DNA of 64,000 nt from an uncultured bacterium (GCA_903831815.1 CAIKZC010000001.1:85037-149036); one strand, 5' to 3'. Shown: positions 2,648 through 56,221, counted from the stretch's first letter. Notes: generated by a model not told the origin, from the letters alone. A program made the numbers and translations.

Positions 2648-2651
2648 CAAC

Positions 2652-35552: not shown

Positions 35553-35700
35553 TAAACACTATTAATACTTTAATTGTATACTTGTCAAATATTTAGGCTA
35601 CGCAAGTTATCCACAGGGGGGATAAAATGTTTTATTTAAAAAAACTCCGCATAATCGTCTTTTGGACTTTTACACGGAGACCTTTCCTTCCAGCGAACGA

Positions 35701-36315: not shown

Positions 36316-36390
36316 ATGAAAAGACCTTAATTAGAACTCTTTCGAGAAATTATCACTAAATATCAAATTCGTCAAACGGAAACACAAAAC

Positions 36391-37038: not shown

Positions 37039-37085
37039 GCCAAAAGCCTAACAAATGGAGATAAAATATTAATAAAATCCAGCTA

Positions 37086-37384
37086 TTGACAAAATCTTGG
37101 CTTATGCTAAGATACAAGAGGAAAATTTCAGAAAGTCTCTTGGCACTAACTGACCCGTTCTTGGAACTGATCATTCTAAAGGGCGCACTCAGAAGGCCGG
37201 TGATAGTCATGCACCTTAGCTGAAACTCTTCGTGAGATTCGAGGTTTCAGTGACAAAAGAGCGGAATCCTCACTAAGGGAAGCGTATGCACATGTCGCGA
37301 CCCCTGATTTTTTTAAAAATGTGCCGGTCATTGGACCGAGAACGAACAAACCCCTCAGCTACGCTTGATGAGGGGTATTTTCTT
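37086..37384 (+). ncRNA. Candidate small RNA: orphan promoter (TTGACA-16-TAAGAT) to an intrinsic terminator, with no ORF
   Basis: -35 at 37086-37091 and -10 at 37108-37113. Terminator CCCCTCAgctacgcttgaTGAGGGGtattttctt at 37351-37384. No ORF over 30 aa on this strand. Convergent with the downstream gene. Confidence 0.4.
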
Positions 37385-37405
37385 GGCCAAAAAACTAAAA
37401 ACTAC

Positions 37406-38029
37406 TTAAACACTGAGTATTTCAAACCTCTCACCCTCGACAAAAACGGCTTGGTCGTCGTTTAGGAAAATGAGCGGAGTTTTGTTTTCCGCGAGGTGCT
37501 CCATAACTTTCTTATTATCCGCTACAATATCGGGATTATTGGTATGCGGCAAGATCATGAAGTTGACCAATCCCAAAGCTCTATAATCGGATATCAAGTT
37601 GAGGTATTCCGTTTCCCCACCATCGTACTGCGCCAAGGTCACATCTTTTGCCGCTATCATGGAACCCGCGCTCGTGCCGGTGTATATAATTTCACCCTTC
37701 CGCACAGCGTCAACCACCACCCCTGCGAGACCGCTCTTCTGCAACACCGACAAAAGAAGCAACACACTGCCCCCGCAAAAATGAATAACCTCTGACCTCC
37801 CCAAAAGCTCCCTCATCTCCTCTTTTGTCGTCTTCCTCAAATCAACATCAACAATTTCACAACCCAAAGACGTAAACGCTTCCCTGTCGCTCCGCACCCA
37901 CCACGGCTCTTCAACCTCATCCGCCGCGTTCCTAATAAACATCACCTGGCAGCCCTTCCCCACCTTCGGTGCTTTCATCGCGAGAATCGAAATCGTATTT
38001 TGCAAACTTGAGGCGAGGAAGAGGGTCAT
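37406..38029 (-). CDS. Peptidase S51 family (dipeptidase E-like)
   Basis: GTSAGS nucleophile motif; IHFCGG; 207 aa. Confidence 0.7.
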   Translation of the reverse strand: MTLFLASSLQNTISILAMKAPKVGKGCQVMFIRNAADEVEEPWWVRSDREAFTSLGCEIVDVDLRKTTKEEMRELLGRSEVIHFCGGSVLLLLSVLQKSGLAGVVVDAVRKGEIIYTGTSAGSMIAAKDVTLAQYDGGETEYLNLISDYRALGLVNFMILPHTNNPDIVADNKKVMEHLAENKTPLIFLNDDQAVFVEGERFEILSV

Positions 38030-38034
38030 GGTTA

Positions 38035-38574
38035 TTATTTTATACCTCCAAAATTATACTTCCATCCCGGCTGCCATTTGAAGTGAGTCGATGTTAATTG
38101 CTCAAGCGTTACACCATTGATTAAATTTTCCAAACCAAACTGTGTTGCTCTATGACCGATTATCATAACTCGCTTGCCATCATAATTTTTAAACAAGTCT
38201 TCTAAAAAAGATTTCATTCGTACAGTTGTTTGAGTATAACTTTCACCATTAGGAAAAGGCGTTGAAATTCTTTGTGGTTTTTCCTTATCAACAATCTCGC
38301 TGGGTTTTTGAGTAAAATCACCATAGTTACATTCTCGTAACCGAGCGTCTTTTACAATCGGCCATTTATTACCAAAACCAATTTCTGCACTATTGTATGC
38401 ACGTTGAAGATCAGAGCAAAAGATTGCATCAAAATGATCATTTTTATATCGCTCTCCCATTTCTTTTGATTGTTGAATACCTAAAGGAGACAAAGCCACG
38501 TCATTGTGTCCGGACGCTAAATGAGCTTCGTTATCAAATGTAGTTCCGTGTGCTTCAAATATTATTTCAATCAT
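38035..38574 (-). CDS. Histidine phosphatase family protein (phosphoglycerate-mutase-like)
   Basis: N-terminal EAHGTT catalytic His motif, a variant of RHG; 179 aa. Confidence 0.65.
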   Translation of the reverse strand: MIEIIFEAHGTTFDNEAHLASGHNDVALSPLGIQQSKEMGERYKNDHFDAIFCSDLQRAYNSAEIGFGNKWPIVKDARLRECNYGDFTQKPSEIVDKEKPQRISTPFPNGESYTQTTVRMKSFLEDLFKNYDGKRVMIIGHRATQFGLENLINGVTLEQLTSTHFKWQPGWKYNFGGIK

Positions 38575-38668
38575 AAAATTATTCTAATATTTTTGATTTA
38601 TCACCAACTGTAATTGTACCAAAAAGAAAGGCCGGCGGAAAACTAATCTTTACTTTTTTAATATTATA

Positions 38669-39883
38669 TTGTATTTTAGTAAGATGTTATTCGAAGAACT
38701 GATAAAAAAACATCTGGCCGGAATAGATCTCGACCTTAGAAAAAAACCTGATGGATATTCTCGTTACATGGATCAAAAGGTCACACCGGATGTTTTAACT
38801 TTTATCGCCGACTGCATTGTAAATTTTTTAGGCGGAAAAAAATCTGACACAATTTTCACAACTAAAGATATTTGGGATTTTCAATATTTCCAGAAAAACA
38901 TCGTTGCTATATTTGGTAAACCATCTCCTACAAACGAAAGTGCAAATGCAGAATACGATAAGTTTATTGCTCAACCACTTAAAACTTTAGCATTTGCAAA
39001 GATATTGGAAGAAAAGAAAGTGGGGGTACGAAATACATACCAAGTCATTCAGCCAGAATTGTTGGAGTACATTTCACAAAACGAACGAAATGCTTGGGTA
39101 TTCCTTGTTGTGTATGTTGAAAAAGTTCTAACTGATAGCGGTTTTATTAAAGAGTTAAATTCTTTTAAGACTAAGTCACTTTCTGGAACGGTGACTCAAG
39201 AAGATTTTGAACTCCTCAAAGCAAAATTTGAATCTTTCATGCTTGGATATACAAACATAACAACTGATGTTGAAATTAGACGTATTTTTCCTAAAGTCTT
39301 AAATCCTTACGCAGCTTACAACATGATTAACGGCTCAGAAGATGGGCATATGACAGAAAGTAGATTCGTTTATTCTGACTTAATGTATAACCGATCAAAT
39401 TTTCGAGATTTAGGAAAAGACAAAGCCCTGACAAGAAGTGAGGCTGAAGAAATTTTTATTGGTAAACCAGAATTTTCTGATTACAGAACACAAAAAGCAA
39501 AAAATATTGTAAGAAGAAATCATTCAACCAGCGAGATTCGTGACAAATTGGCTGTCGGAGATGCTACTCAGGTTCACCACATATTCCCCGAACATCAGTT
39601 TCCTAAAATCTCGGCTTTTGTTGAAAATTTAATCCTGTTAACACCACAACAACACAACACAAGAGCTCATCCGAATAACCACACTCAATCTATTGATCGA
39701 GATTATCAACGTGAGTGTATTTTGTCTAAAATTACTTCAATTGAATCTTCAATCAGACAAGGGAAAGACATTTATTCAAAAGAGTCGTTGATCCATGTTC
39801 TAAACACAGGGCTCTCGTTGGACATGTCAACAAACACAACATTCAACGAATTAAGGGAAGTTGTAAAAAAAACGTACGCTTAA
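38669..39883 (+). CDS. Putative HNH-motif (beta-beta-alpha-Me) nuclease, candidate restriction endonuclease
   Basis: C-terminal ...VHHIFPEHQFPKISAFVENLILLTPQQHNTRAH (H-H...N...H). Convergent and overlapping with the MTase stop. AT-rich island. Confidence 0.45.
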   Translation: MYFSKMLFEELIKKHLAGIDLDLRKKPDGYSRYMDQKVTPDVLTFIADCIVNFLGGKKSDTIFTTKDIWDFQYFQKNIVAIFGKPSPTNESANAEYDKFIAQPLKTLAFAKILEEKKVGVRNTYQVIQPELLEYISQNERNAWVFLVVYVEKVLTDSGFIKELNSFKTKSLSGTVTQEDFELLKAKFESFMLGYTNITTDVEIRRIFPKVLNPYAAYNMINGSEDGHMTESRFVYSDLMYNRSNFRDLGKDKALTRSEAEEIFIGKPEFSDYRTQKAKNIVRRNHSTSEIRDKLAVGDATQVHHIFPEHQFPKISAFVENLILLTPQQHNTRAHPNNHTQSIDRDYQRECILSKITSIESSIRQGKDIYSKESLIHVLNTGLSLDMSTNTTFNELREVVKKTYA

Positions 39884-42405
39884 TTTTTCACTTGTACTCC
39901 AAAAAAGAATACCGAGTTGTTATCAATATTTAATGACCTTGTACCATGGTTTCGGGCTACTCGATAGAACTCAGTAAATTCTTCGGTTCCAAAATAAGCT
40001 AGATCTTTTTCGGTTATTTTAACGTCAGTTCCTTTTTGAGTAAGAATCGCCACAGATCCATCTACAAGCGTGTTTTCAGGTAAGAATGATGCTCTGGGAG
40101 CATATGTTAGATTCGGTACCAAAACACTTTTATCTTTATTCCAAAATTTTGATATTGATAAACCCTCTAACGAATCGACGTAGGAATCATAATTTGGAAT
40201 ATTTATTATTTCATTTCGCCCAATATTTCTTGATTTCAATATTCGTATTTTCCCTTTGTTTTTTGTTATCTTTTTAGTAATTTGTCGATCTCTATAGGAG
40301 GTAAATATATTGAATCTAAGTTTTCTTGCAACAAAGTCAAAGAAACTATTTCTATACACCAGCCAATACGGAAAATCTTTTGAACATATATATGACTGAT
40401 CCTTGTAACCAATTTCATTTTTTACATAAGATTCAATAAGAGTTCGTGTACCTTTGTTTCTAGTATTAACAATTAAACTTATCGTCTCAATCTTTACCCC
40501 CTTGAATCCTTTCTCGCCATAATCTGTAATTTTTTCTACAGCAAAGGACGATACAAGTTCTCTTGTTTTGTTGAATTCTGGTGCAGACAGAAAGCTTTTA
40601 GGAATAATCAGACCGACCGTATCTCCCAACTGAATTGCTTTTTCAAGAAAATATGAGAAAAGGTTATTTGTTTCTGTATTGTATTTGTCTTTTTTATAAA
40701 CACTCAGAAGTTGTTTATTTTCTGATATATCTCCAAATGGAGGGTTCCCGACAACAATATCATAGTGCTTAGATTGTTTAAATAGATTAGTTTCACCATA
40801 CAGTAGAAAGTCGGCGTTTATCAAATTGATTTTTACATTTTTAGGTATATCAATTTTTTTAAGTAAAATCCTTAGAATCTCAATTGCGTTTTTATCTATA
40901 TCAATAACGTCGATTTCTACATCACTAACTATTTTGTATTTTTCAATAAGTAATGGAAGAAAATTTCCAGCCCCAACAGATGGCTCTAATATAGAGACTT
41001 TTTCAAATTTAGATGCATCTGGTAAATCTTTTATAATAGTGAAACAAATATCTTGTCTTGTGTAATAAGCGGCATGTTGAAAGCGTTGAGCATTTGAATG
41101 TTCAACCATCTTTGCCAATTCAGGGTAATTTAGATCTTTTATGTTTTCTTTAAGAAATATTTTTAGATTTTCTTCTATGTAAAGTCTCTTCTCCTTAATA
41201 AGTTTTTTTATTTGGGTTTCATTCTTCTCTATATTCTTGAATTTTAAATTTATATTTTTAGCTATTCCATTGAATATGACAGTAGGTACCGCTTCACCAA
41301 GAGATTGTCTAATATTAATCTCTTCTTTTTTAAGGATCTTCCTTTTCTCTTCGTCAGACAGTTTATTTAGGTCGTTTAGTGAGATAGACACCCAATTAAA
41401 AGAATTCGGAACAGACATCATTCGCATTAATTCTCTAATACTGAAAACTCTATTGTCTTTCGGATGAATTGTAGCTTGACTGGCTAATATATCGTTTCTT
41501 GTATGAACACAGGGGGCAACCTTATCCCAATAACATCGAGAATACTTGTCTCCATTTTTATTTTCATTACTTACAATTTTTCCATTTACAATTTGATGGG
41601 GTCGTCTCTTAGGATCAACGTTATCAAACGCGGATTGACCTTCCTTAGTATTCTCTATCCAAGGAAGCATGTGTTCAGAATATGGTCGAAAATTGTGGTA
41701 AATATCTTTTTTATCAATCTCACCCATTTTCCTCAGAGGAGCAAGGTCTCCAATCGCGCCTCGCAAAGTGCTGCCATTTTTTAAGGGAGGCATTAAATCT
41801 AACGGTGTGACTTCATGAATATCTTTTCTTACGCCAATTACTAGTGTTCTTGTTCTACTAGATGGGTTACCGTAATCTTTGAAATTAATTATTTGATAGT
41901 GAATGTTATATTTGCCACCCAAGTTCAATTCTATTGCCTCACGAATTTTTTTCTGATTTTTATCAGTATCAGTACAAAGGCTAGAAAGAAAGGCTCGTAC
42001 ATTTTCAAAAATAAATACCTTTGGTCTAATTTTATCCACAAGTTTGATTGATTCAACAACAAGTGAATTTCGTGCCAACTCATCTCCTTTCTTATGGTTT
42101 GCAACCGACATCCCCTGACATGGAGGTGTTGCTAACAGAACGTCGATTTCTTTTAATCCTTGCTTTGATTTCCAAAGATCAATCTCTGAAAAGATTTTGT
42201 TTTGCGTACTTTTTTTTGTAATATCATCATTTATATATCCACTAGAATATGTGCATGTGTTATTATGTTTTTGAACATCTAAACGTCTGCTAATCAGTTC
42301 GACAGTTGCAACACAATCAAAACCCTCTTTCGAGAAGCCGTAGCATCCAACGCCAGCACTACTAAATAGGCTTATGTATGTTAATTTTTTACGCTGATTA
42401 TTCAT
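39880..42405 (-). CDS. Fused DNA methyltransferase: N-terminal C5-cytosine MTase plus C-terminal amino-MTase (NPPF, N6-adenine/N4-cytosine type)
   Basis: m5C motifs I LFSSAGVGCYGF, IV PPCQGMS, VI FIFENV. C-terminal motif I EPSVGAGNF and motif IV VVGNPPFG. 841 aa, GC about 30%. Confidence 0.8.
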   Translation of the reverse strand: MNNQRKKLTYISLFSSAGVGCYGFSKEGFDCVATVELISRRLDVQKHNNTCTYSSGYINDDITKKSTQNKIFSEIDLWKSKQGLKEIDVLLATPPCQGMSVANHKKGDELARNSLVVESIKLVDKIRPKVFIFENVRAFLSSLCTDTDKNQKKIREAIELNLGGKYNIHYQIINFKDYGNPSSRTRTLVIGVRKDIHEVTPLDLMPPLKNGSTLRGAIGDLAPLRKMGEIDKKDIYHNFRPYSEHMLPWIENTKEGQSAFDNVDPKRRPHQIVNGKIVSNENKNGDKYSRCYWDKVAPCVHTRNDILASQATIHPKDNRVFSIRELMRMMSVPNSFNWVSISLNDLNKLSDEEKRKILKKEEINIRQSLGEAVPTVIFNGIAKNINLKFKNIEKNETQIKKLIKEKRLYIEENLKIFLKENIKDLNYPELAKMVEHSNAQRFQHAAYYTRQDICFTIIKDLPDASKFEKVSILEPSVGAGNFLPLLIEKYKIVSDVEIDVIDIDKNAIEILRILLKKIDIPKNVKINLINADFLLYGETNLFKQSKHYDIVVGNPPFGDISENKQLLSVYKKDKYNTETNNLFSYFLEKAIQLGDTVGLIIPKSFLSAPEFNKTRELVSSFAVEKITDYGEKGFKGVKIETISLIVNTRNKGTRTLIESYVKNEIGYKDQSYICSKDFPYWLVYRNSFFDFVARKLRFNIFTSYRDRQITKKITKNKGKIRILKSRNIGRNEIINIPNYDSYVDSLEGLSISKFWNKDKSVLVPNLTYAPRASFLPENTLVDGSVAILTQKGTDVKITEKDLAYFGTEEFTEFYRVARNHGTRSLNIDNNSVFFFGVQVKN

Positions 42406-42557
42406 CCCTTACATTATAACTTTTATAAGTTTTTCTGGGAAGGGCTATTTTCAATATTAACTAATGATAAGGTCTTTTGGAAAAATATTTTTTAATCAAC
42501 ATGGCTAAAGAAATATTTATACAATCAACAACATTTTTTATTTTCTTTGTAAATTCA

Positions 42558-43244
42558 TTAAAATGGCTTTGGATACGACTTCATTGGTCCAATAATTTCA
42601 TAAAACTTCTTTAAGTTAACGATAACAGATCCATTATTTGAAAAAATTTTCTTTTTGTGTAATACAGATAAGTCGATGTCGTCTTGGGAAAAATTATCAT
42701 TTGCGACTACATAAAAAAGTTTACCAGAAAAGTTTTTATACTTATCAATTTTTATATTTATATTGTTTTGTAAATTAAGCATTGTATCAGTATTAAAAAT
42801 ATCAACACCAAAATTACCGTCTGGAGAATAAACATAAAAATCTACCCTATTTCTTGAATCATCAAAAATTTTCTCAGTATGTACGAAGACCTCACCAAAT
42901 TTATTTTTTAAAATTCTCTCTAAAGCCAACTCACTGGCACGCCCCCTTTTATTAACACGGAGAGCTATCTCACTCCTAAATTTACCTTTTCCAAAATGAA
43001 CATCTTCATAACCTAAAACCGAGCGCAATTGTTGCAAACCTCCAAATCTTCTTTCAATCATTTTCCGATTCGGCAAGAATTCAAATGAATCTAATTCTAT
43101 AGAACCTGGATACCTTCCGTTTAGTTCTTTAAAATATTCAAATCCGTCTTTAAGATTTTCAAGACTCCATTTCTCTCCAACAACATTTTTAATATTCTTT
43201 TTTAAATTTTTATATTTTTCCATTAGATTTAAATACGTAGCCAA
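42558..43244 (-). CDS. Hypothetical protein (228 aa) in the R-M island; possible nuclease partner
   Basis: Co-directional with the MTase. Weak PD-(D/E)xK-like pattern (VDFYVY...GVDIFNTD). Speculative. Confidence 0.4.
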   Translation of the reverse strand: MATYLNLMEKYKNLKKNIKNVVGEKWSLENLKDGFEYFKELNGRYPGSIELDSFEFLPNRKMIERRFGGLQQLRSVLGYEDVHFGKGKFRSEIALRVNKRGRASELALERILKNKFGEVFVHTEKIFDDSRNRVDFYVYSPDGNFGVDIFNTDTMLNLQNNINIKIDKYKNFSGKLFYVVANDNFSQDDIDLSVLHKKKIFSNNGSVIVNLKKFYEIIGPMKSYPKPF

Positions 43245-43270
43245 GCAATACTATATTTGAACTATTTTAA

Positions 43271-43780
43271 TTAGTAAAAACAGTTAAATATAGGAGTTTT
43301 TGTTAGTAGTGAACTTAAAATTGCTGTTGCTACAGCTGAACCGATACCAACAAGAATAGCTAACCAAAAATTCCTTTGTTCTTTGCGCTGTTCGTTTGTT
43401 TTATACCCATTATTTCTAAAAGCCAAAAGACCGGACTGCATTTCAACCTGCCAACTCATTGCATAATCTTTTGTTCCAAGCTTATTAAGATAAAATATTG
43501 GACCAAAAATAGCTTCATCCTCTTTTCCAAGATTAAATTTAGTAAATCCATTGAAAATATTCACACTCTCACTTCTACGGTTTCTGGTTATTGAAATAAG
43601 TTTTTCTCTTTCTAAAAAATCTAAGGTATAGAAAATACCATCAAGTTCCTTTAGTAATTCCAACAAATTTGGTTTCAAATGTTCAAAATTATTGAATCCT
43701 TTTTTCTCAGTTAAAAGCTGACCAAGAAACGGTTCTCTTCTCGTTAGAATTAAATCTACAAGTTTCGTATGAATTTCCAT
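43271..43780 (-). CDS. Hypothetical protein (169 aa) with a C-terminal TM helix
   Basis: ORF with C-terminal hydrophobic segment LAILVGIGSAVATAILSSLL. Confidence 0.4.
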   Translation of the reverse strand: MEIHTKLVDLILTRREPFLGQLLTEKKGFNNFEHLKPNLLELLKELDGIFYTLDFLEREKLISITRNRRSESVNIFNGFTKFNLGKEDEAIFGPIFYLNKLGTKDYAMSWQVEMQSGLLAFRNNGYKTNEQRKEQRNFWLAILVGIGSAVATAILSSLLTKTPIFNCFY

Positions 43781-44011: not shown

Positions 44012-44863
44012 TTACTTCCCACTCTTTGCCTTCCCCACTCTCCTTCTCGTCACAATCAAATGATTTGAATATCTCTTTGCTCGTCGTGACTTCTGTCCCT
44101 TGCCCGTTGGCTTGCCGTAAACAGACTTTGCGCGTCGAGTTCCTCGTCCCTGTCGTCCTTCACCTCCTCCGTATGGATGGTCAACTGGGTTTTGAGCAGT
44201 ACCTCGAACGGTTGGGCGAATACCTAACCATCGACTTCGTCCTGCTTTACCAATATTGATCAATCGGTTTTCCTCGTTGGAAACAACACCGATAGTTGCG
44301 AAACAGGTATCGATAACTCGTCGTACTTCAGTTGAAGGCAACTTTAGGTGCACATATCCGGCATCGTGAGCAATAACTTCAACGAAGTTACCGGCAGACT
44401 TTGCAAGTCGTGCGCCACCATTAGCATTTACTTCAACGTTGTAAACGAAAGTACCGACTGGAATGTTCTTGAGCATCATTGAATTTCCAACTTTGATCTC
44501 GGCTTTTGGCGAAACAATGAACTCACTGCCAACTTTCATACCTTGTGGAAGTACAACGTATCGTTTCTCGCCATCTTTGTATTGAGCGAGAGCGATGAAG
44601 GCTGTACGGTTTGGATCGTATTCAACAGTCATGAGAGTGGCAGGAATATCTCGTTTGTTATATGTAAAATCAACTTCTCGATAGAGTCGTTTGTGTCCTG
44701 ATCCCTTATGACGTGTGGTGATAATACCTCGGTTGTTGCGTCCTACAGCACGTTTGAAGCCATGAGTAAGTGATTTCTCAGGGTCGTTCGTAGTCACGAT
44801 CTTGTTAAATTCGATCGTGGTCATCGCTCGTCGAGGGATACTGGTTGGTTTATATGATTTCAT
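44012..44863 (-). CDS. rplB: 50S ribosomal protein L2
   Basis: ...GRNNRGIITTRHKGSGHKRLYR... Confidence 0.9.
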   Translation of the reverse strand: MKSYKPTSIPRRAMTTIEFNKIVTTNDPEKSLTHGFKRAVGRNNRGIITTRHKGSGHKRLYREVDFTYNKRDIPATLMTVEYDPNRTAFIALAQYKDGEKRYVVLPQGMKVGSEFIVSPKAEIKVGNSMMLKNIPVGTFVYNVEVNANGGARLAKSAGNFVEVIAHDAGYVHLKLPSTEVRRVIDTCFATIGVVSNEENRLINIGKAGRSRWLGIRPTVRGTAQNPVDHPYGGGEGRQGRGTRRAKSVYGKPTGKGQKSRRAKRYSNHLIVTRRRVGKAKSGK

Positions 44864-48209: not shown

Positions 48210-48592
48210 ATATTTATTGGTGAGTTGGTTCGCTATTAAGCAGGATGCACGAGATGTTTACCCTGTCCGATAGCTAACGCTCAAATTTACTTCTAGTTAA
48301 TAATGATGCTTTCAATTACTGCAAAAACCGGCCAATGGCCAGCGCCGTAAAATGAAAACAGCGCATAAAATGCGTATTTGATATAGTAGCAGATACGAAA
48401 TAATAGTCAATGGGAGCAGGTTTCGGCTGTACCCTAATAGTGCACAGGTTACGCACTTCCAGCTTAAATTTGCTTTTATGCTATTGACTTCCCTATTTTA
48501 CACTGTATTATCCAAGCAGAAATCTCGACCGTCAATGTGATGGTTGTGATTGCACACAAATAACTCTTTGTAATGAATGGAAGGAGCCAGCT

Positions 48593-49054
48593 ATGGCAAG
48601 TCACAAGGAAATCGCGGCGATTAAGAGCTACATCGTTAACGCCCCGAAATCAAAGTTTGATACCGATGCTGCCGCCGTCGCCTTGGGCATGCAGATTATG
48701 TTTTACCTGATCGCCCAATCTGAAGAGTTTGAGACGAGCGTTCGTATCAACCTCCAAGGAAATACCAAGACCAAGGAACGATTAGACGGGGCTTGCAATT
48801 TTATGACTCGCGTCGGCAAATTCAACCACGGCCTCAACGCAATGCTGCGGGCCGCCGGCACCAATCGTCGCTTTGAAGGAATTTCTGTTGAACGGGGTCA
48901 GTACATATTCTCTTTCAAGCCATTTGATGTTTCCCCTTTCGAGGTGGACAACATCCCCCGCGTCAACTTCGATGAACTTACAACGATCGTCCTCCCCACA
49001 ACTGGGCTCAATCCTGTGACAGAACAGGAGCGAGTCACGGTTGCTCAGGTTTGA
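48593..49054 (+). CDS. Hypothetical protein (153 aa), an opposite-strand insertion between fusA and tuf
   Basis: Consensus-like promoter TTGACT-16-TATTAT at about 48486-48514. RBS AAGGAG. Terminator CCCACCGaaactctCGGTGGGcttttttt at 49088-49125. GC above background. Confidence 0.5.
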   Translation: MASHKEIAAIKSYIVNAPKSKFDTDAAAVALGMQIMFYLIAQSEEFETSVRINLQGNTKTKERLDGACNFMTRVGKFNHGLNAMLRAAGTNRRFEGISVERGQYIFSFKPFDVSPFEVDNIPRVNFDELTTIVLPTTGLNPVTEQERVTVAQV

Positions 49055-49147
49055 GAATGCATCGAGCTCAAACTGCCGCGCACCAAAACGCAAAACCCAC
49101 CGAAACTCTCGGTGGGCTTTTTTTATTTGCTTTTTTTGTTTTACTTT

Positions 49148-51292: not shown

Positions 51293-51721
51293 ATAATAAT
51301 AATTAATAAGCTAAAGCTTTTTTTGACGTCACTCGGACGGATATGAGAATAAGACTCTCATATCCGTCCTCATTAGTCAAAATAAAAAAGGGCGTTGACC
51401 CTACTAATAAGTACCCGTGATTGTAGCGTAAAAGGTTGAAAGTGTAAAGAAAACGGATCCCCGAATCAATTACCTGCTATAATAATCCCAGATTGGTTAT
51501 ATTGAACGGTTACGGCTTTTCAAGACCTTTTGGACTCATGCATATTGAGAGCGCGGACGGTTACGGCTTTCCACGGAGGATATGCATGGTAGTCAACAAA
51601 AAAGAAAATACTTGGTGCGACGTGTTGGTTGATTTTTGATCACATATAAAATACAGTCCGGTCTCTTCCATTTTTTTTGGACTAGATGGACAGTGGAATA
51701 GATGACACGTCGCACAACACC

Positions 51722-51846
51722 GACTCTAACGGCAACCCGAACGTTTTCAATCTCGAACACAACGATGATGGTTTGTGGCTGAACAACAATTGGGCGAAAC
51801 CCGACAATGAGTGGAATCCGAACAACAAGTTCGCGTTCCGTCTCCG
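51722..51846 (+). repeat. DGR template repeat (TR), 125 nt
   Basis: Aligns with VR 53314-53438 (minus strand) with about 27 mismatches, all at TR adenines, plus one synonymous G/A. Followed by hairpin CCGCGAttttacaagTCGCGG at 51862-51882. Confidence 0.85.
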
Positions 51847-51868
51847 AAACTGTTTTCTTTCCGCGATT

Positions 51869-52216
51869 TTACAAGTCGCGGTTTTTCTTTTCTGGATTTA
51901 CCAGACTTTTCTTCCAACCACCAAGCATTTTGCCAACATCTTCAAGTTTCAGGGCAACATCTTCATATTGTTTGTCAGAAATGAGCTTACCCTCCCACGC
52001 AACCGAAATCAGAAACTTCAAGGTATCCAGAATCAAAATACATTTTGAAATCTTTTCCAATTTCTTTTCTTTTTCTGTAAAATAAGCAATATAAGCCCAA
52101 TCGAGCAAATCAAGAAATTTATTTTCAATTCGAGAGCCAATAGTATAACGAGACCCTTTAGCAATATGAGGAACAATGTTAACCCAAACCAAATACCCCT
52201 CTTTGATTCTATTCAA
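51869..52216 (-). CDS. avd: DGR accessory variability determinant (Avd, four-helix-bundle family)
   Basis: 115 aa. C-terminal ...LKLEDVGKMLGGWKKSL and N-terminal YLVWVNIVPHIAKGSRYTIG match the bAvd/four-helix-bundle family pattern. On the strand opposite to the RT, overlapping the RT ORF 5-prime end. Confidence 0.65.
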   Translation of the reverse strand: MNRIKEGYLVWVNIVPHIAKGSRYTIGSRIENKFLDLLDWAYIAYFTEKEKKLEKISKCILILDTLKFLISVAWEGKLISDKQYEDVALKLEDVGKMLGGWKKSLVNPEKKNRDL

Positions 52217-53285
52217 AATCGAGGCGTTATCGAGAGAGAGAGAGAGAGAGAGTAAACTGCGGTTTGGTCATATCTATGATGATATCATTTCTATTAAAAA
52301 CTTGCTCATAGCATGGCGCGAATTTTTGCGCAACAAACGCGACCGAAAAGATGTCGAAAGATTTTCACTTCATTTAATGGATAACGTGTTAGCGCTTCAC
52401 CGTGAACTTATAAACAAAACTTACCATCACGGACACTATAAAGCTTTCAAAATCAATGATCCAAAACCCCGTGACATTCACAAAGCGAGTGTTCGGGATC
52501 GACTTTTACACCACGCAATTTACCGAATTTTATATCCATATTTTGATCCTAAATTTATTTTTGATTCGTACTCCTGTCGAAATGTTAAAGGCACGCATCG
52601 TGCCGTAAATCGTTTTCGTAAATATGCTCGCAAAGTTTCAAAAAACCACACCCGAACTGTTTGGATTTTAAAATGTGATATCAGAAAATTTTTTGCCAAT
52701 ATTGATCACAAAATTTTACTAGATATTTTAAAACGACGCATGAGTAATAAAGACACTGTTTGGTTACTAAATGAAGTTATTAAAAGTTTTAACACTAAAA
52801 ATAAATCGGATGTTGGTTTGCCGCTAGGCAATCTTACCAGCCAACTTCTTGTGAATATATACATGAATGAATTTGATCATTTTATCAAACGAAATTTGAA
52901 AATTGCTTATTATGCCAGATATGCAGATGATTTTATTGTTTTGCACGAAAACAAAGAATATCTCAAGGGTATTCTGCCAACAATATCAGAATTTCTAGAA
53001 ACACACCTAAAATTATCACTCCATCCAAACAAAGTTTCCATAAAAACAATTTCTTCTGGAGTCGATTTTTTAGGCTGGGTCAGTTTTCCACACCACAGAG
53101 TTTTACGCAACTCTACAAAAAAGAGGATGTTCAGAAACTTAAATCGAGATCCGAAAAAAGAATCTTTGGCCTCTTATCAAGGACTCTTAAGTCGCGGCGA
53201 TACACATAAATTGAAACAAATGATATCAGAAAAATATTTCGAAAAGAATCAAAGAAACCAAGAGCCAAAGGTTCAGAAAAATTAA
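52176..53285 (+). CDS. DGR reverse transcriptase; true start uncertain (may lie downstream of the (GA)10 tract)
   Basis: RT motifs: LKCDIRKFFANIDHKIL (motif 2), GLPLGNLTSQLLVNIYMNEFD (motif 4/B), YARYADDFIV (YxDD catalytic), LHPNK...GWV. Confidence 0.85.
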   Translation: MLTQTKYPSLILFKIEALSRERERESKLRFGHIYDDIISIKNLLIAWREFLRNKRDRKDVERFSLHLMDNVLALHRELINKTYHHGHYKAFKINDPKPRDIHKASVRDRLLHHAIYRILYPYFDPKFIFDSYSCRNVKGTHRAVNRFRKYARKVSKNHTRTVWILKCDIRKFFANIDHKILLDILKRRMSNKDTVWLLNEVIKSFNTKNKSDVGLPLGNLTSQLLVNIYMNEFDHFIKRNLKIAYYARYADDFIVLHENKEYLKGILPTISEFLETHLKLSLHPNKVSIKTISSGVDFLGWVSFPHHRVLRNSTKKRMFRNLNRDPKKESLASYQGLLSRGDTHKLKQMISEKYFEKNQRNQEPKVQKN

Positions 53286-53297
53286 GAGTAAAAGACT

Positions 53298-55142
53298 CTA
53301 AGTTTTAGACTTGCGGAGACGGAACGCGAACTCGTAGCCCGGATCCCACCCAAAGCCGGGCATCGCCCAAGCGCTGTACAGCCATAAACCAACACCGCGG
53401 CGTTCGAGATTGAAAACGCACGGGCTGCCGTCAGAGTCGGAGATTTGTTTCATACCAACAACAAACCAGTCACCTAAAGGCTGATTTTTATATTGCAGAC
53501 GATAATTAGGTCCTGTATCGGCGGGACACAATTCCAACCCAAGGGCTTGTGCTCGTTCATAAATTTGATCAGTTGTGGCGTTTGTTTTGAAACCAAGATC
53601 AGCAACCGTTAAACGAATCAGTGTGGCAGTTTCAATATTTTTGCCAGTCACAAATTCACGACTTTTGAGCATAAATTCGACATTATCAGAAATTTTTATG
53701 CCATCTTTTTTCAATTCACTTAATAAGTGTTCACCAGTTTTGCCTCCTATCTCAACACTTTCTCGGCTAATTTTCTTTTCCGGAAAGGAAGTGTAAACGT
53801 GTTCAAGATTGTCTGGTAGTTTTTGGAAAATACCGGGTTCGAGTTGTCCGACATATACCTTGGTGTTTTCATTTATTTGACTTGGAACGTGTGCAATCTG
53901 TTCTTTTGTGCACTCAAAGATAACCAACACGTCTTCTTCAACATTTCTATTGGTTCGTAATTCGACAATACGTGGGTCACGTTCGTAACCAAAACCTTCA
54001 ATCGGTGTGTTAATTTCGTAGAGAAAAATCAAATCATCTTTGGTAAAGGCTTCGCCTTTTTCGTGTTTTTGATCCAAAGCAGTAAGCTTTTTCATGTCCT
54101 CACTTTTTTTGCGATACGCATCGGCTTCCGTGCCAAATTCTGCAAGCTTAGTATCCAATACCTCCTGAAAAATTGGTTCAACATCTTGATGGGGTAGAAG
54201 CCCGCGGATTTGACCGATTTGGTTGCCAGTCATTTGGATTGCGAGGCGTGGCTGAGTGGGATTGCCGTCATTGTCGTAAGTATAATAAACATAAAAATCT
54301 CCTTGCTTGTTGTAGCTGTGCGCAGTTGCCTTGCCTTCAATACACCAACCAGCTCCACCTGTCTTCCCTTCCACAGATTGCCATAGTCTATCAGCATCAT
54401 TAGAATTGTTAGCTTCATATTTTATCCACGTTCCTTGTATTTCTTCCTTATTTTCGATTTTGGAAGCCAGAGAGCCGGCAATAAAATCGGCATATAGAGC
54501 TGGAAATTTCTTGGAAAAATTTTCTCGTATTTCCAGGTCTTTCAGATTTTTGTTGTCATTTTTAACTTTTTCGTAAATATCAAGTATTTTTGCCAACGCA
54601 GCTCGGTTGATATCAGGGAAACGACCCACGGTTGATTCGGTACGAGACTTGAACTTACCTAGTTCTTTGTCGAATTGCGAAAGCTTAATTACCTGATTCC
54701 AAACGTAGTATTTAAACCAAGCAGGGTAAGCAACGTCTTCTTTAGTGAGATAATCCATCCATGTATCGAGAGAGTGCTTCTGATCTTCAATTGCTACATC
54801 CATCATCTGCTCGCGCACGTTTTCAGGAATTACTTCTACAGGTTGCCCACGTTCTCGTGCGATACGTTGCTGAAGTTCAAAATAGCTTTCGGGGAAATTA
54901 TCACGCTTGATTAGCAACGCGTCATATATTTTGTCGCGAAACATTTCAATGTTACGTTCACGTTTTTCTGTATCCGGATTGAGAAAAATATTTTCCAGTC
55001 TATCCATATATGCTTCTATTCTTGCGGTTGGATCATTAGGAACACTTTCACCGGTTCGTTGTTCCTGACGTTCTACTGCACGTTGCACCTCAGGTGAGGT
55101 TTGCAATTCTGGGTTTTTGATATGAAGCGGAAATTTTTCCAT
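53298..55142 (-). CDS. DGR target protein (614 aa) with the variable repeat in its C-terminal 40 aa
   Basis: C-terminus ...SPCVFNLERRGVGLWLYSAWAMPGFGWDPGYEFAFRLRKS is the diversified counterpart of TR-encoded ...NVFNLEHNDDGLWLNNNWAKPDNEWNPNNKFAFRLRN (Asn AAC codons in TR). VR 53314-53438. Confidence 0.8.
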   Translation of the reverse strand: MEKFPLHIKNPELQTSPEVQRAVERQEQRTGESVPNDPTARIEAYMDRLENIFLNPDTEKRERNIEMFRDKIYDALLIKRDNFPESYFELQQRIARERGQPVEVIPENVREQMMDVAIEDQKHSLDTWMDYLTKEDVAYPAWFKYYVWNQVIKLSQFDKELGKFKSRTESTVGRFPDINRAALAKILDIYEKVKNDNKNLKDLEIRENFSKKFPALYADFIAGSLASKIENKEEIQGTWIKYEANNSNDADRLWQSVEGKTGGAGWCIEGKATAHSYNKQGDFYVYYTYDNDGNPTQPRLAIQMTGNQIGQIRGLLPHQDVEPIFQEVLDTKLAEFGTEADAYRKKSEDMKKLTALDQKHEKGEAFTKDDLIFLYEINTPIEGFGYERDPRIVELRTNRNVEEDVLVIFECTKEQIAHVPSQINENTKVYVGQLEPGIFQKLPDNLEHVYTSFPEKKISRESVEIGGKTGEHLLSELKKDGIKISDNVEFMLKSREFVTGKNIETATLIRLTVADLGFKTNATTDQIYERAQALGLELCPADTGPNYRLQYKNQPLGDWFVVGMKQISDSDGSPCVFNLERRGVGLWLYSAWAMPGFGWDPGYEFAFRLRKSKT

Positions 55143-55143
55143 A

Positions 55144-55365
55144 TTATTTTATTTTCTTAGCAAGCTCACGCAAGTCACCATAAAGAACTTTTCCTTCTCC
55201 TAACTCGCTTTCGGCTTGGAGAACAGCATTAACCGCCTCGTCCTCAGCAAAATGATCGAGAGCTTTGTGTACAACTTCAACTTTGTTATTTGCATTTCCA
55301 GCTTTTATATAGGCCGCAATAAAGGCTTCTTGTTTTGCGGTAATTGATATTGATAACGTAGTCAT
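55144..55365 (-). CDS. Ribbon-helix-helix (ParD/CopG-like) small protein, translationally coupled (TAAtATG) to the DGR target
   Basis: 73 aa. TLSISITAKQEAFIAAYIKAGNANNKVEVVHKALDHF aligns with ParD-family antitoxin ...[33 protein letters not shown]. Confidence 0.5.
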   Translation of the reverse strand: MTTLSISITAKQEAFIAAYIKAGNANNKVEVVHKALDHFAEDEAVNAVLQAESELGEGKVLYGDLRELAKKIK

Positions 55366-55414
55366 ATATTTTTATAGTATTGCCACATTATACTATAATA
55401 CGCCGTAAATAATA

Positions 55415-55445
55415 CAGGAAATCTTGAGGTCGCAATTTGCGACCT
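55415..55445. promoter_or_regulatory. 30-nt perfect palindrome ATCTTGAGGTCGCAATTTGCGACCTCAAGAT between ORF6N-2 and the RHH gene (terminator and/or operator)
   Basis: Core GGTCGCAATTTGCGACC is identical to the core of the 36752-36780 palindrome. TATAAT at about 55388 (minus strand) lies downstream of it. Confidence 0.5.
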
Positions 55446-55467
55446 CAAGATTTACTAACAAGCTATT

Positions 55468-55974
55468 TTACCCATGAAAACCAATTCTCGGTTTTTCCTT
55501 CTCTTTTGGTTGAATTGGAGGTTCCATAAGTTGTTTTATAGCTCGAAAAACAACTTGAAAATGTTGATCGTATTTTTTCTCCAACTCATCCAATCGACGA
55601 ACCAAGTCTTTGTTAACAGAAAGAATTTGGCGCAATTTTATAAAAGTCCTTACTATTGCCACACTCATAACAATAGCTTGTGGACTGTTTAATACGTTAG
55701 CCGCCATCAATGCACCATGCTCAGTAAATGCATATGGCAAGTAACGACGCCCGCCATAACTTGAGGTCACAAATTGTGACCTCAAGTTTTGCACTTCTTC
55801 CAAACTCAACTGAAACATAAAATCTTCAGGAAAACGATCAGGATTCCTTTTAACTGCCTGATTTAAAACCTTTGTCTCCACACCATACAAATTTGCCAAA
55901 TCCCTGTCCAAAATCACCTTTTGATTACGAATAATTAAAATTGCCTGTTCTACCCTCTCCAGTTTTTTATTCAT
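55468..55974 (-). CDS. ORF6N-domain (KilA-N-like) protein, paralog 2
   Basis: ...IRNQKVILDRDLANLYGVETKVLNQAVKRNPDRFPEDFMFQLS...LRSQFVTSSYGGRRYLPYAFTEHGALMAANVL. The LRSQFVTSS motif is encoded by the 27-nt perfect palindrome CTTGAGGTCACAAATTGTGACCTCAAG (55769-55795). Confidence 0.8.
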   Translation of the reverse strand: MNKKLERVEQAILIIRNQKVILDRDLANLYGVETKVLNQAVKRNPDRFPEDFMFQLSLEEVQNLRSQFVTSSYGGRRYLPYAFTEHGALMAANVLNSPQAIVMSVAIVRTFIKLRQILSVNKDLVRRLDELEKKYDQHFQVVFRAIKQLMEPPIQPKEKEKPRIGFHG

Positions 55975-56048
55975 CCCAAAACCGTAGCATTTTGGAGATA
56001 AAATATTTATAAAATCTATTTGATATTTTTTATATTTTATTTAATGCG

Positions 56049-56149
56049 GAAGACTATGCCTTGAAGGGTGCCTTGCGCAGCGCGACTGGCGCGAGCGGAG
56101 CGGACGGCCAGTAGGCCGGAACGCGTGCATCCCAAAAGACATAGTCTGC
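56049..56149 (+). repeat. Element B copy 3
   Basis: Closing stem AGACTATGCC...GACATAGTCT. Core near-identical to copy 1, with GGCCagtaGGCC. Followed by terminator AAAAAACCACCgagcGGTGGTTTTTT at 56165-56200. A TTGATA-17-AATGCG promoter-like sequence sits upstream at about 56009-56040. Confidence 0.65.
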
Positions 56150-56221
56150 AGCATTTACATACAAAACAAAAAACCACCGAGCGGTGGTTTTTTGTTTTGT
56201 ATTTATGTTTTTGCTTTCAGA

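What the first reader, a model, noticed from the sequence alone, without database searches (positions are those of the whole stretch)
51686..55365. Complete diversity-generating retroelement (RT, Avd, TR, C-terminal VR) inserted between fusA and rpsG
The TR (51722-51846) and the VR at the 3-prime end of the 614-aa target gene (53314-53438, minus strand) align over 125 nt. About 27 differences all fall at TR adenines; the only other difference is a synonymous ttg/tta. TR AAC (Asn) codons correspond to R, G, Y, S, A, M, F, D in the VR, which is the DGR adenine-mutagenesis signature. The RT has the YADD active site. An Avd-like four-helix-bundle gene sits on the opposite strand to the RT and overlaps its 5-prime end, which is unusual. 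The target is convergent with the RT, 12 nt stop-to-stop. The whole module interrupts the otherwise universal rpsL-rpsG-fusA-tuf arrangement.
Basis: partly seen in the sequence, partly recalled or inferred. Interest (0 to 1): 0.85.

Follow-up and report, generated by a model that had tools for sequence, protein, structure and literature searches.

The report
Diversity-generating retroelement inside ribosomal gene cluster
This is a complete, probably active diversity-generating retroelement of the type usual in Patescibacteria (CPR), lying in a gap of the rpsG-fusA cluster that is often occupied in this lineage; its family also carries a structured RNA leader before the template and a hypervariable repeat tract at the RT/avd junction, neither of which I found described.

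Summary
TR 51720-51846 (+) and VR 53440-53314 (-) align without gaps over 127 nt. Of 25 mismatches, 24 lie at TR adenines (p=1.6e-15). The RT has the YADD and LGNLTSQ motifs, Avd scores above the Pfam cut-off, and the 614-aa target carries the VR at its C-terminus.

Two points called unusual are ordinary. TR-(avd)-RT is the published B3 architecture, found in 90% of CPR DGRs. In relatives the rpsG-fusA and fusA-tuf spacers often hold accessory genes, and one relative has another DGR between fusA and tuf.

I found three further things.
1. A ~225-nt leader lies 5' of the TR. It has an extended -10 box, eight helices with strong covariation, and a terminator straight after the TR. Together these define a discrete RNA of about 400 nt. 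Rfam has no match.
2. Every close relative has a (GA)5-21 or G9-14 tract at the avd/RT junction. An otherwise identical contig from another sample differs by exactly one GA unit.
3. Another contig from the same population differs from the window at one base in 2846, and that base is an adenine-templated VR position.

Verdict: an ordinary new member of a known kind. The family-wide leader and repeat tract deserve follow-up.

The parts
51475..51483 (+). Extended -10 promoter-like box TGCTATAAT, just upstream of the conserved leader
   Evidence: Read directly from the sequence. A TAnnnT box, mostly preceded by TGn, sits at the same place in about 20 of 21 related loci (alignment). Its function is inferred.
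51491..51719 (+). Conserved structured non-coding leader of the DGR RNA. Helices: H1 51502-51510/51515-51523; H2 51538-51546/51579-51587; H3 51552-51561/51566-51575; H4 51615-51626/51704-51715, which abuts the TR 5' end; H5 51630-51634/51638-51642; H6-8 51656-51670/51678-51691
   Evidence: Alignment A5 of 22 loci and the RNAalifold structure. 95% of cells are paired against 81.7% in shuffles. 37 pairs and 182 cells have changes on both sides against 23 and 60 in shuffles (0 of 500 shuffles reach the observed values). Slid-partner controls give 18-38 cells. Many G-U pairs fix the strand as +. nhmmer finds the leader 41 times in 2.06 Mb; the full-length matches lie beside a TR and a few partial matches lie beside targets without a cassette. 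No Rfam family matches.
51720..51849 (+). Template repeat (TR). The last 19 nt of the core (51828-51846) are identical to the VR (IMH*-like). Homology with the VR ends at 51849
51861..51891 (+). Intrinsic-terminator-like hairpin CCGCGA...TCGCGG followed by TTTTTCTTTT, directly after the TR. It overlaps the last codons and the stop of avd on the other strand
   Evidence: Terminator scan. The hairpin and T-run are conserved in the family alignment. It may be the 'Avd-binding stem-loop just downstream of TR' reported for many DGRs by Handa et al..
51869..52216 (-). avd, the accessory variability determinant (115 aa from TTG 52216). An alternative start is TTG 52192, which follows a GAGGGG Shine-Dalgarno-like motif
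   Evidence: PF22296 bAvd at 51.1 bits, above the gathering score of 40. NF033474 DivGenRetAVD at E=3e-16. 62-85% identical in most relatives.
52232..52252 (.). (GA)10.5 simple-sequence repeat at the head-to-head avd/RT junction. It lies 15 nt upstream of the avd start codon and inside the window's RT ORF, where it encodes RERERE
   Evidence: TRF. A (GA)5-21 or G9-14 tract sits at the same position in all 30 rows with RT and avd, the window included. 33 of the 41 such tracts in 2.06 Mb lie at this junction. Contig L165 from another sample is identical over 1837 nt except for one GA unit fewer.
52176..53285 (+). DGR reverse transcriptase (369 aa from ATG 52176, which follows a GAGGA Shine-Dalgarno-like motif). 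The ATG that follows the repeat tract in most relatives is CTG here (52257)
   Evidence: RVT_1 at E=2e-25. LGNLTSQ at residues 216-222 and YADD at 249-252. More than 8000 homologues, the closest from Patescibacteria. Start-codon analysis.
53311..53440 (-). Variable repeat (VR), encoding the last ~44 residues of the target. The IMH-like GC-rich segment is 53314-53332
   Evidence: Contig L166 from the same population differs from the window at a single base in 2846: 53335, which changes VR codon TAC (Tyr) to TCC (Ser) opposite TR adenine 51825.
53298..55142 (-). DGR target gene, 614 aa, with no signal peptide or recognised domain. The VR sits in a C-terminal, probably C-type-lectin-like domain
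51446..56164 (.). Lineage-specific island in the rpsG-fusA spacer. It holds the DGR cassette, a ParD-like 73-aa gene (55144-55365, minus strand) and an ORF6N gene (55468-55974, minus strand)
   Evidence: Homology with the closest relative L082 stops at 56165 and resumes at 51445. ParD-like match TIGR02606 at E=7e-6, below the cut-off. ORF6N at E=5e-36 and PADLOC PDC-S05 at E=2e-55. Neither gene accompanies the DGR in other loci.

Best explanation
The region is a chromosomal diversity-generating retroelement of the Patescibacteria-specific type with a TR-(avd)-RT core (architecture B3). It diversifies the C-terminal ligand-binding surface of a 614-aa protein that is conserved across Paceibacteria. 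What is shown: all parts are present and intact, the TR/VR differences are adenine-specific, and the same cassette occurs across the family. What is inferred, by analogy with the Bordetella phage DGR: (1) A short promoter drives a non-coding RNA of about 400 nt, made of a structured leader, the TR and a terminator. (2) RT and Avd, made from head-to-head genes, bind this RNA. (3) cDNA synthesis starts near the TR 3' end, around 51849. It copies the TR with misincorporation opposite adenines. It stops at the 12-bp helix H4, which abuts the TR 5' end. (4) The cDNA replaces the VR of the convergent target gene, guided by the 19-nt GC-rich IMH. The cassette is cargo of a 4.7-kb island in the rpsG-fusA spacer. 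In this lineage the spacers of the str cluster are frequent landing sites, because rpsL-rpsG, fusA and tuf appear to be separate transcription units.
For: - TR/VR: 24 of 25 mismatches lie at TR adenines, p=1.6e-15. There is no other VR in the window.
- RT: RVT_1 domain with LGNLTSQ and YADD. Avd scores above the Pfam cut-off.
- Family: 33 related loci have TR/VR pairs in which nearly all mismatches (12-26 per locus) lie at TR adenines. TR(+)-avd(-)-RT(+) is invariant, while the target sits on either side. This equals the published B3 architecture.
- Activity: one base differs in 2846 nt between two assemblies of the same population. It is a VR position templated by TR adenine 51825. The chance of that by position alone is about 37/2846 = 1.3%.
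- RNA unit: a conserved extended -10 box, a leader with covariation well above the controls, and a terminator-like hairpin after the TR.
- Context: homology with the nearest relative breaks at 56165 and 51445. A hairpin with a T-run follows rpsG, and a promoter-like site precedes fusA. Spacers are occupied in many relatives, and there is a second DGR in the fusA-tuf gap of L088.
- No relatives of the target occur in IMG/VR viral contigs.
Against: - The ATG that starts the RT after the repeat tract in most relatives is CTG here. Translation must use ATG 52176 or TTG 52203 upstream, reading through the GA tract, or a weak CTG. RT expression is therefore uncertain.
- The window and two of the other three assemblies that cover the VR carry the same VR. 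Diversification is not rapid at the consensus level.
- No GC-rich hairpin follows the IMH. Wu et al. find one in only 34% of DGRs.
- The C-type-lectin fold rests on weak scores. The isolated domain modelled poorly, with pLDDT 58.
- Transcription, priming and homing are all inferred.
Confidence: 0.93

Rival explanations
1. The cassette is a decaying relic that is no longer active. The VR differences record past activity, and the RT has lost its start codon.
For: The family-typical ATG after the tract is CTG in the window. The VR is identical in the window, L165 and L167. Many relatives of the target have no RT, avd or TR within 10 kb, and some keep only a leader fragment (L030, L032, L053). Loss of the cassette is therefore common.
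Against: The RT, avd and target ORFs are all intact. An in-frame ATG with a GAGGA motif lies upstream; relatives have ATA at this position, and the difference is synonymous in avd. The TR, leader and terminator are all conserved. The one population-level difference falls exactly on an A-templated VR base.
Confidence: 0.12
2. The RT belongs to another retroelement or defence system, such as a group II intron, a retron or a DRT/Abi system. In that case the TR/VR similarity is a partial gene duplication.
For: The best NCBIfam hit of the RT is group II intron RT/maturase (162 bits, far below the cut-off of 300). It also gives weak hits to Drt and retron models.
Against: No group II intron or retron RNA is found by Rfam. 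avd lies adjacent. The substitution spectrum is adenine-specific, which a decaying duplicate would not show, and this recurs in 33 loci. The RT carries LGNLTSQ. That this is the motif-4 signature of DGR RTs is from my own knowledge.
Confidence: 0.02
3. The island is a prophage or mobile-element remnant that brought the DGR in. On this view the DGR serves a phage, as in Bordetella phage BPP-1.
For: ORF6N and a ParD-like antitoxin gene, typical mobile-element cargo, lie beside it. The cassette's genomic position differs between genomes, and in L002 a serine recombinase is adjacent.
Against: The island has no integrase, no structural phage genes and no flanking direct repeats. The target family has no relatives in 2.9 million viral contigs. 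Roux et al. 2021 describe the Patescibacteria DGR clade as almost entirely cell-encoded. ORF6N and ParD do not travel with the DGR elsewhere.
Confidence: 0.05
4. The GA or G tract at the avd/RT junction has no switching role. It is just a purine-rich ribosome-binding or 5'-UTR element, or a mutational hot spot tolerated in a non-critical spacer. The one-unit difference in L165 is an assembly error.
For: In about 17 of 30 loci a canonical in-frame start follows the tract, so tract length cannot shift the RT frame there. The frame of the conserved upstream ATG relative to the RT is 'in' in only about a third of GA-type loci, as expected by chance (my count). Only one variant contig was seen.
Against: The tract's position is fixed while its type (GA or G) and length vary freely. 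33 of 41 such tracts in 2.06 Mb sit at this junction. In the poly-G relatives L055 (G11) and L011 (G14) the RT is in frame with upstream starts. In L002 (G10), with similar flanks, it is not. In the window the only canonical starts lie upstream of the tract.
Confidence: 0.45

Closest known systems
CPR/Patescibacteria DGRs of architecture B3, TR-(avd)-RT (Wu et al. 2018, PMC5758913), equal to DGR clade 2 of Roux et al. 2021 (PMC8144416)
   Same: The core order and strands match: TR, inverted avd, RT. The host phylum is the same. The element is cell-encoded. The target lacks transmembrane or known domains. Such DGRs are sometimes interleaved with ribosomal protein genes.
   Different: Nothing essential differs; the window is an ordinary member. 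The papers I could read do not mention the ~225-nt structured leader 5' of the TR or the repeat tract at the avd/RT junction. I could not read Paul et al. 2017 (Nat Microbiol), the main paper on CPR DGRs.
Bordetella phage BPP-1 DGR (mtd-avd-TR-brt)
   Same: Adenine-specific TR-to-VR transfer. An RT plus an Avd. The VR lies at the 3' end of the target and is followed by a GC-rich IMH. A duplex abutting the TR 5' end acts as the cDNA stop in BPP-1 (Handa et al. preprint). H4 occupies the same position here.
   Different: In BPP-1 all genes are on one strand. The essential structured RNA (the 140-nt Sp) lies 3' of the TR and pairs back with it to prime from Sp A56. Here avd is inverted, and the TR is followed within 12 nt by a terminator-like hairpin. 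The conserved structured RNA lies 5' of the TR, so the RNA looks permuted. BPP-1 is phage-borne and targets a tail fibre. This element is chromosomal, and its target has no recognised export signal.
Simple-sequence-repeat contingency loci, for example poly-G or poly-C and dinucleotide tracts in Neisseria, Haemophilus (hifA/hifB divergent promoters) and Campylobacter. These examples are from my own knowledge; reviews are listed.
   Same: A hypermutable tract sits in the 5' part of an ORF or between divergent genes. Tract length differs between close relatives and within one population.
   Different: The controlled genes here would be the RT and Avd of a mutagenic retroelement, not a surface antigen. 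No switching of expression has been shown. In many family members the tract lies upstream of the likely start codon.
PcfJ-like DGR targets (category g of Wu et al. 2018)
   Same: Wu et al. list PcfJ-like domains upstream of the VR in a few CPR targets. Foldseek against viral models gives two PcfJ-like proteins among the top three hits (E 0.02 and 0.6).
   Different: None of the 40 family members matches the Pfam PcfJ model, even at E<=10. The resemblance is weak and structural only.

Membership tests
Diversity-generating retroelement (DGR) | A TR/VR repeat pair whose differences fall almost only at TR adenines | tested here: met
   24 of 25 mismatches lie at TR adenines, p=1.6e-15. The same holds in 33 related loci.
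Diversity-generating retroelement (DGR) | A reverse transcriptase of the DGR type: RT motifs 1-7, YxDD, and (I/L/V)GxxxSQ in motif 4. The last criterion is from my own knowledge. | tested here: met
   RVT_1 at E=2e-25 covering residues 97-301. LGNLTSQ at 216-222 and YADD at 249-252. No DGR-specific RT profile was available, and no phylogeny was made.
Diversity-generating retroelement (DGR) | The VR lies at the 3' end of a protein-coding target and is followed by an IMH that differs from the IMH* of the TR | tested here: met
   The VR ends 11 nt before the stop codon. A 19-nt identical GC-rich segment is followed by divergence after 51849/53311. The function of the IMH cannot be tested here.
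Diversity-generating retroelement (DGR) | An accessory protein Avd (present in most DGRs, not all) | tested here: met
   PF22296 at 51.1 bits, above the cut-off of 40. NF033474 at E=3e-16, which at 59.5 bits is below the NCBI cut-off of 80.
Diversity-generating retroelement (DGR) | The VR is displayed on a C-type-lectin (or Ig) fold | tested here: inconclusive
Diversity-generating retroelement (DGR) | Ongoing mutagenic retrohoming, seen as VR heterogeneity in the population | tested here: inconclusive
   The single difference in 2846 nt between two assemblies lies at an A-templated VR base. Two other assemblies have the same VR as the window. Reads were not available.
DGR architecture B3 (Wu et al. 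2018) | Core order TR-(avd)-RT, with avd on the reverse strand | tested here: met
   Window coordinates. Definition from the legend of Figure 5 of PMC5758913.
Structured non-coding RNA (candidate new family: DGR leader) | Conserved secondary structure supported by compensatory changes above the controls | tested here: met
   52 pairs. 37 of them have changes on both sides against 23 in shuffles (0 of 500 reach the observed value). 182 cells against 18-38 in slid controls. The 22 sequences are related, so shuffle control (a) overstates significance; slid control (b) is the safer one.
Structured non-coding RNA (candidate new family: DGR leader) | Expressed as RNA and required for cDNA synthesis | not testable with these tools
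   Only promoter-like and terminator-like motifs are available.
SSR contingency (phase-variable) locus | A hypermutable repeat tract in a promoter or 5' coding region whose length varies between close relatives | tested here: met
   (GA)5-21 or G9-14 in all 30 rows, the window included. L165 differs from the window by one GA unit and by nothing else in 1837 nt.
SSR contingency (phase-variable) locus | Tract length switches expression of the adjacent gene | not testable with these tools
   In the window the RT frame from ATG 52176 is open with (GA)10.5 and closed with (GA)9.5. This follows from the sequence. Which start codon is used is not known.
Group II intron / retron / DRT reverse transcriptases | Score above the family cut-off, plus the cognate RNA (intron domains or msr/msd) | tested here: not met
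   All NCBIfam hits are far below their cut-offs. Rfam finds no intron or retron RNA.

The most novel reading that the evidence does not exclude
Two features may set the Patescibacteria B3 DGR clade apart from the Bordetella paradigm.

(a) Its DGR RNA may be a self-contained transcript of about 400 nt in which the RT/Avd-binding and priming scaffold lies 5' of the template, a permuted arrangement. Helix H4 would play the part of the cDNA stop duplex.

(b) The mutagenic machinery itself may be under stochastic control by a hypermutable (GA)n or (G)n tract at the head-to-head avd/RT junction. Cells in a population would then switch diversification on, off or in level.

In the window, the RT frame from its only canonical start codons depends on the tract length. 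A (GA)9.5 allele, which would close that frame, coexists in the same population.
Probability: 0.35. Interest if true: 0.75.

Novelty: new member of a known kind. Interest (0 to 1): 0.5.

Why it matters
The element itself adds one more Patescibacterial DGR and shows that the spacers of the str cluster are landing sites for accessory genes in this lineage.

The family-level features matter more.

**The leader.** A covariation-supported leader would give DGR biochemists a second, differently arranged RNA scaffold to compare with the Bordetella RNP. It is also a candidate new RNA family.

**The repeat tract.** If the tract gates RT or Avd, that would be a case of one hypermutation device controlling another. 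It would bear on how cells limit the cost of targeted mutagenesis.

Both points can be tested with existing metagenomic reads and simple reconstitution experiments.

Tried and rejected
- **Other VRs in the window.** There are none.
- **GC-rich cruciform after the IMH.** Not present.
- **Target function.** Sequence searches found nothing: Pfam at E<=10 over 40 members, NCBIfam, PADLOC, and PDB sequence profiles of the whole protein and of the C-terminal domain.
- **C-terminal domain modelled alone.** Poor model, pLDDT 58, so not used.
- **AFDB50 fold library.** Unavailable.
- **My recollection that the middle domain looks PcfJ-like.** Pfam does not support it. BFVD Foldseek gives only weak support.
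- **Pairing between the leader and the TR 3' end that could mark the priming site.** The leader's AAAGAAA (51601-51607) is complementary to UUUCUUU at 51854-51860 and at 51884-51890. Both partners are nearly invariant, so covariation cannot test this. I leave it as a hypothesis.
- **RNAalifold pairs inside the TR.** I disregard these, because the TR is constrained by the protein it mimics.
- **The conserved ATG at 52166 as the general RT start.** Its frame relative to the RT is 'in' in only about a third of GA-type loci, so this is rejected.
- **The tract as the spacer of an avd promoter.** For the window I read a possible TTTACT-19 nt-GATAAC on the minus strand. The -35-like box is not conserved in relatives, so this is not adopted.
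- **Exact-sequence look-up of the window Avd.** Not on record.
- **Paul et al. 2017.** Could not be read.
- **The palindrome in and beside the ORF6N gene as a genome-wide repeat.** There are only two copies in the window.

Full report
**Observation.**
- Over 51720-51846 / 53440-53314 the two sequences align without gaps. There are 25 mismatches in 127 nt. Of these, 24 lie at TR adenines (15 A>G, 7 A>T, 2 A>C). The other is the synonymous TTG/TTA change at 51775.
- With 37 adenines in the TR, the hypergeometric probability is 1.6e-15.
- In the VR reading frame the changes recode TR AAC, AAT, AAA, GAT, GAC, GAG, CAC and AAG codons.
- The last 19 nt are identical and GC-rich. Homology ends at 51849/53311.
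- A pattern derived from the TR 3' part finds only the TR and this VR in the 64-kb window.

**The genes.**
- The 369-aa ORF at 52176-53285 is a reverse transcriptase (RVT_1, E=2e-25). It has LGNLTSQ at residues 216-222 and YADD at 249-252. Its hits to group II intron, Drt and retron models all fall far below their cut-offs.
- The 115-aa ORF at 51869-52216 on the minus strand is Avd: PF22296 at 51 bits against a cut-off of 40, and NF033474 at E=3e-16.
- The 614-aa target (53298-55142, minus strand) has no Pfam, NCBIfam, PADLOC or PDB sequence match.
- The RT and target stops are 12 nt apart.
- Rfam finds no intron or retron RNA.
- The identification as a complete DGR is therefore sound.

**The family and what is already known.**
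- The target belongs to a large family, with 1712 hits at about 70% identity over the full length. Every named hit comes from Patescibacteria or Paceibacteria. The same is true of the closest RT homologues.
- I examined 79 loci from GTDB species representatives. In every locus that has both RT and avd, the module TR(+)-avd(-)-RT(+) is invariant. The target lies before or after it in three arrangements. The window's arrangement recurs in L008, L034 and L058.
- 33 loci have a TR/VR pair with 12-26 mismatches, nearly all at TR adenines.
- Wu et al. 2018 define exactly this core as architecture B3, 'TR-(avd)-RT'. They state that it accounts for 90% of CPR DGRs. [quoted passage not shown]
- Roux et al. 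2021 describe a cell-encoded DGR clade restricted to Patescibacteria whose targets lack recognisable domains.
- The target family has no relatives in IMG/VR.
- So the inverted avd is the norm for this lineage, not an oddity.

**Genomic position.**
- The nearest fusA relative (94% identical; L082/L083) has rpsL-rpsG, then a 946-aa gene with no Pfam match, then fusA, then a HigB-like/HTH pair, then tuf. An 85% relative holds other small genes in both spacers.
- Among 83 metagenomic relatives, the rpsG-fusA gap exceeds 500 nt in 25 of 59. The fusA-tuf gap does so in 31 of 42.
- L088 (fusA 79%) carries another DGR of the same clade between fusA and tuf. Its target is 288 aa and shares only the C-terminal VR domain.
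- Against L082, homology stops at 56165 and resumes at 51445. This delimits a 4.7-kb island made of the DGR, a ParD-like gene and an ORF6N gene.
- The hairpin after rpsG (56156-56205) is conserved in L082, but there it lies on the other side of that genome's insert. The two insertions are therefore independent.
- A promoter-like site and hairpins precede fusA.
- In the window the S10 cluster is likewise interrupted after rplB, by a fused C5/N6 methylase and other genes.
- My inference is that the str/S10 clusters are split into several transcription units in this lineage and tolerate insertions. The DGR's position is real but not exceptional.

**The target protein.**
- AlphaFold2 with a 40-sequence alignment gives mean pLDDT 74.6, and above 90 for residues ~400-614.
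- The best Foldseek PDB hits are C-type lectin CRDs (mincle, DCAR2, MCL, NKp65), but at E 0.1-2.
- Foldseek against viral models gives an uncharacterised phage protein (E=5e-6) and two 'PcfJ-like' proteins.
- The C-type-lectin reading is plausible but not established. The N-terminal function remains unknown.

**A structured leader RNA.**
- Aligning the TR flanks of 22 loci shows a strongly conserved non-coding segment of about 225 nt directly 5' of the TR. It begins just after a conserved extended -10 box, TGCTATAAT at 51475-51483 in the window.
- RNAalifold predicts eight helices in it. On that structure, 95% of cells are paired against 81.7% in shuffles. 37 of 52 pairs have changes on both sides against 23 in shuffles. 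182 cells have such changes against 60 in shuffles and 18-38 with slid partners.
- Numerous invariant G-U pairs fix the strand as that of the TR and the RT.
- Helix H4 (51615-51626 with 51704-51715) ends four bases before the TR.
- Directly after the TR comes a hairpin plus T-run that the scan scores as a terminator, at 51861-51891. It overlaps the avd stop codon.
- An nhmmer profile of the leader finds 41 copies in 2.06 Mb. The full-length copies lie beside a TR, including in the distant L088. Truncated copies lie next to targets that have lost the cassette.
- Rfam 15 has nothing there, even at E<=10.
- In the Bordetella phage DGR the essential structured RNA (Sp) lies 3' of the TR. A duplex abutting the TR 5' end stops cDNA synthesis. 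The comparative survey in that preprint looked only 40 nt upstream and 100 nt downstream of the TR.
- I therefore propose, as inference, that this clade makes a discrete RNA of about 400 nt (leader, TR, terminator). The leader would be the counterpart of Sp in a permuted position, and H4 the stop duplex.
- A possible priming contact joins the leader's A-rich segment (51597-51610) with the U-rich stretch after the TR. Covariation cannot test it, because both partners are invariant.

**A hypervariable repeat at the avd/RT junction.**
- The window has (GA)10.5 at 52232-52252.
- All 30 rows with RT and avd, the window included, have a tract at this spot: (GA)5-21 or G9-14. It lies 15 nt from the avd start in the GA type, and 13-44 nt before conserved RT codon 33.
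- Of the 41 such tracts in the 2.06 Mb I held, 33 lie at this junction.
- In about 17 loci a canonical in-frame start follows the tract, mostly an ATG five codons before codon 33. In those loci the tract is probably 5'-UTR.
- In the window that ATG is CTG (52257). The only canonical in-frame starts, ATG 52176 (after a GAGGA motif) and TTG 52203, lie upstream. The ORF therefore reads through the tract.
- Contig L165, from another sample of the same project, is identical to window 52164-54002 except that it has one GA unit fewer. That closes the frame from those upstream starts.
- L167 (3330 nt) is identical to the window, tract included.
- Among poly-G relatives with similar flanks, G11 (L055) and G14 (L011) keep upstream starts in frame, and G10 (L002) does not.
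- This pattern fits a contingency locus. I cannot show switching, and the alternative of a plain purine-rich leader element remains open.
- I found no paper that links DGRs with repeat-mediated phase variation.

**Evidence of activity.** Contig L166 (2846 nt, a third sample) differs from the window at one base only, 53335. The change turns VR codon TAC (Tyr603) into TCC (Ser), opposite TR adenine 51825. So across about 8 kb of overlapping assemblies, the only two polymorphisms are an A-templated VR base and the GA tract.

**Verdict.**
- The element is an ordinary new member of the known Patescibacterial B3 DGR clade.
- Its position in the str cluster reflects a lineage-wide habit of filling these spacers.
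- The features worth following up are family-wide: the structured 5' leader, and the repeat tract at the avd/RT junction.

Noticed in passing
window 55416-55456 and 55755-55791: A near-perfect palindrome of 27-41 nt (CTTGAGGTCRCAAWTTGYGACCTCAAG) occurs twice. One copy is inside the ORF6N gene, where it encodes the conserved NLRSQFVTSS motif. The other is in the spacer between ORF6N and the ParD-like gene. It may be an operator for the ORF6N DNA-binding protein. A 94% match lies in an intergenic spot of L082 (21727-21761).
   Followed up: partly
window 55468-55974 (-) and 36391-37038 (-): There are two ORF6N-domain genes in the window. The one beside the DGR matches the PADLOC candidate defence family PDC-S05 (E=2e-55). 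A homologue sits in the rpsG-fusA spacer of L085.
   Followed up: partly
window 48415-49147, ORF 48593-49054 (+): The fusA-tuf spacer is also occupied, by a 153-aa ORF on the opposite strand with no family match. This stretch has no counterpart in the closest relative L082, which has a HigB-like/HTH pair there instead.
   Followed up: partly
window 33009-43780: The S10 ribosomal cluster is interrupted after rplB (44012-44863). The inserted genes are two unknown ORFs, an 841-aa fused C5-cytosine/Eco57I-type N6 DNA methylase (39880-42405), a 404-aa unknown ORF on the other strand (possibly its nuclease), a histidine phosphatase, a peptidase S51, an ORF6N gene and an 847-aa DUF4082/beta-helix protein.
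   Followed up: partly
window 56156-56205: A hairpin with 24-nt arms (96% complementary) and a T-run lies directly after rpsG and is probably its terminator. Its homologue in L082 (9861-9892) lies after that genome's 946-aa insert. The two genomes were therefore hit on opposite sides of the same hairpin.
   Followed up: partly
window 51335-51448: The conserved region upstream of fusA (87% identical to L082) holds the best promoter-like site of the region (minus strand, TTTACA-17-TACAAT), a terminator-like hairpin (51402-51389) and a 14-bp hairpin (51335-51369). It may be a leader or attenuator for fusA.
   Followed up: no
window 52257 and 52176: The ATG that starts the RT in most relatives is CTG in the window. 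At 52176 the window has ATG where relatives have ATA; the difference is synonymous in the overlapping avd codon. It creates an upstream in-frame start behind a GAGGA motif. This looks like a start-codon relocation that places the GA tract inside the ORF.
   Followed up: partly
L088 3574-6421: A relative has a second DGR of the same clade between fusA and tuf. Its target is only 288 aa and shares just the C-terminal ~115-aa VR domain with the window's target. This shows that the VR domain is modular. The locus also has a G10 tract at the avd/RT junction, and another G10 right after the RT, before a PhD-like antitoxin gene.
   Followed up: partly
L011 9204-15208: The avd-TR-leader-target unit appears twice in tandem, with identical VRs over 179 nt. 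This is either a real duplication or an assembly artefact.
   Followed up: no
L013, L020, L027, L030, L032, L037, L053, L065, L072: Many full-length homologues of the target have no RT, avd or TR within 10 kb. L030, L032 and L053 keep only the first ~70 nt of the leader next to the target gene. This suggests repeated loss of the cassette, or control in trans from elsewhere.
   Followed up: no
window 2574-2648 and 5548-5962: A tRNA-Ile with anticodon TAT and a tmRNA gene are the only RNA genes found by ARAGORN and Rfam in the window.
   Followed up: no
window 55144-55365 (-): A 73-aa ParD/RHH-like gene ends 1 nt before the target's start codon, which suggests translational coupling. No toxin partner is nearby, and the gene is not found beside the target in any other locus.
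   Followed up: partly
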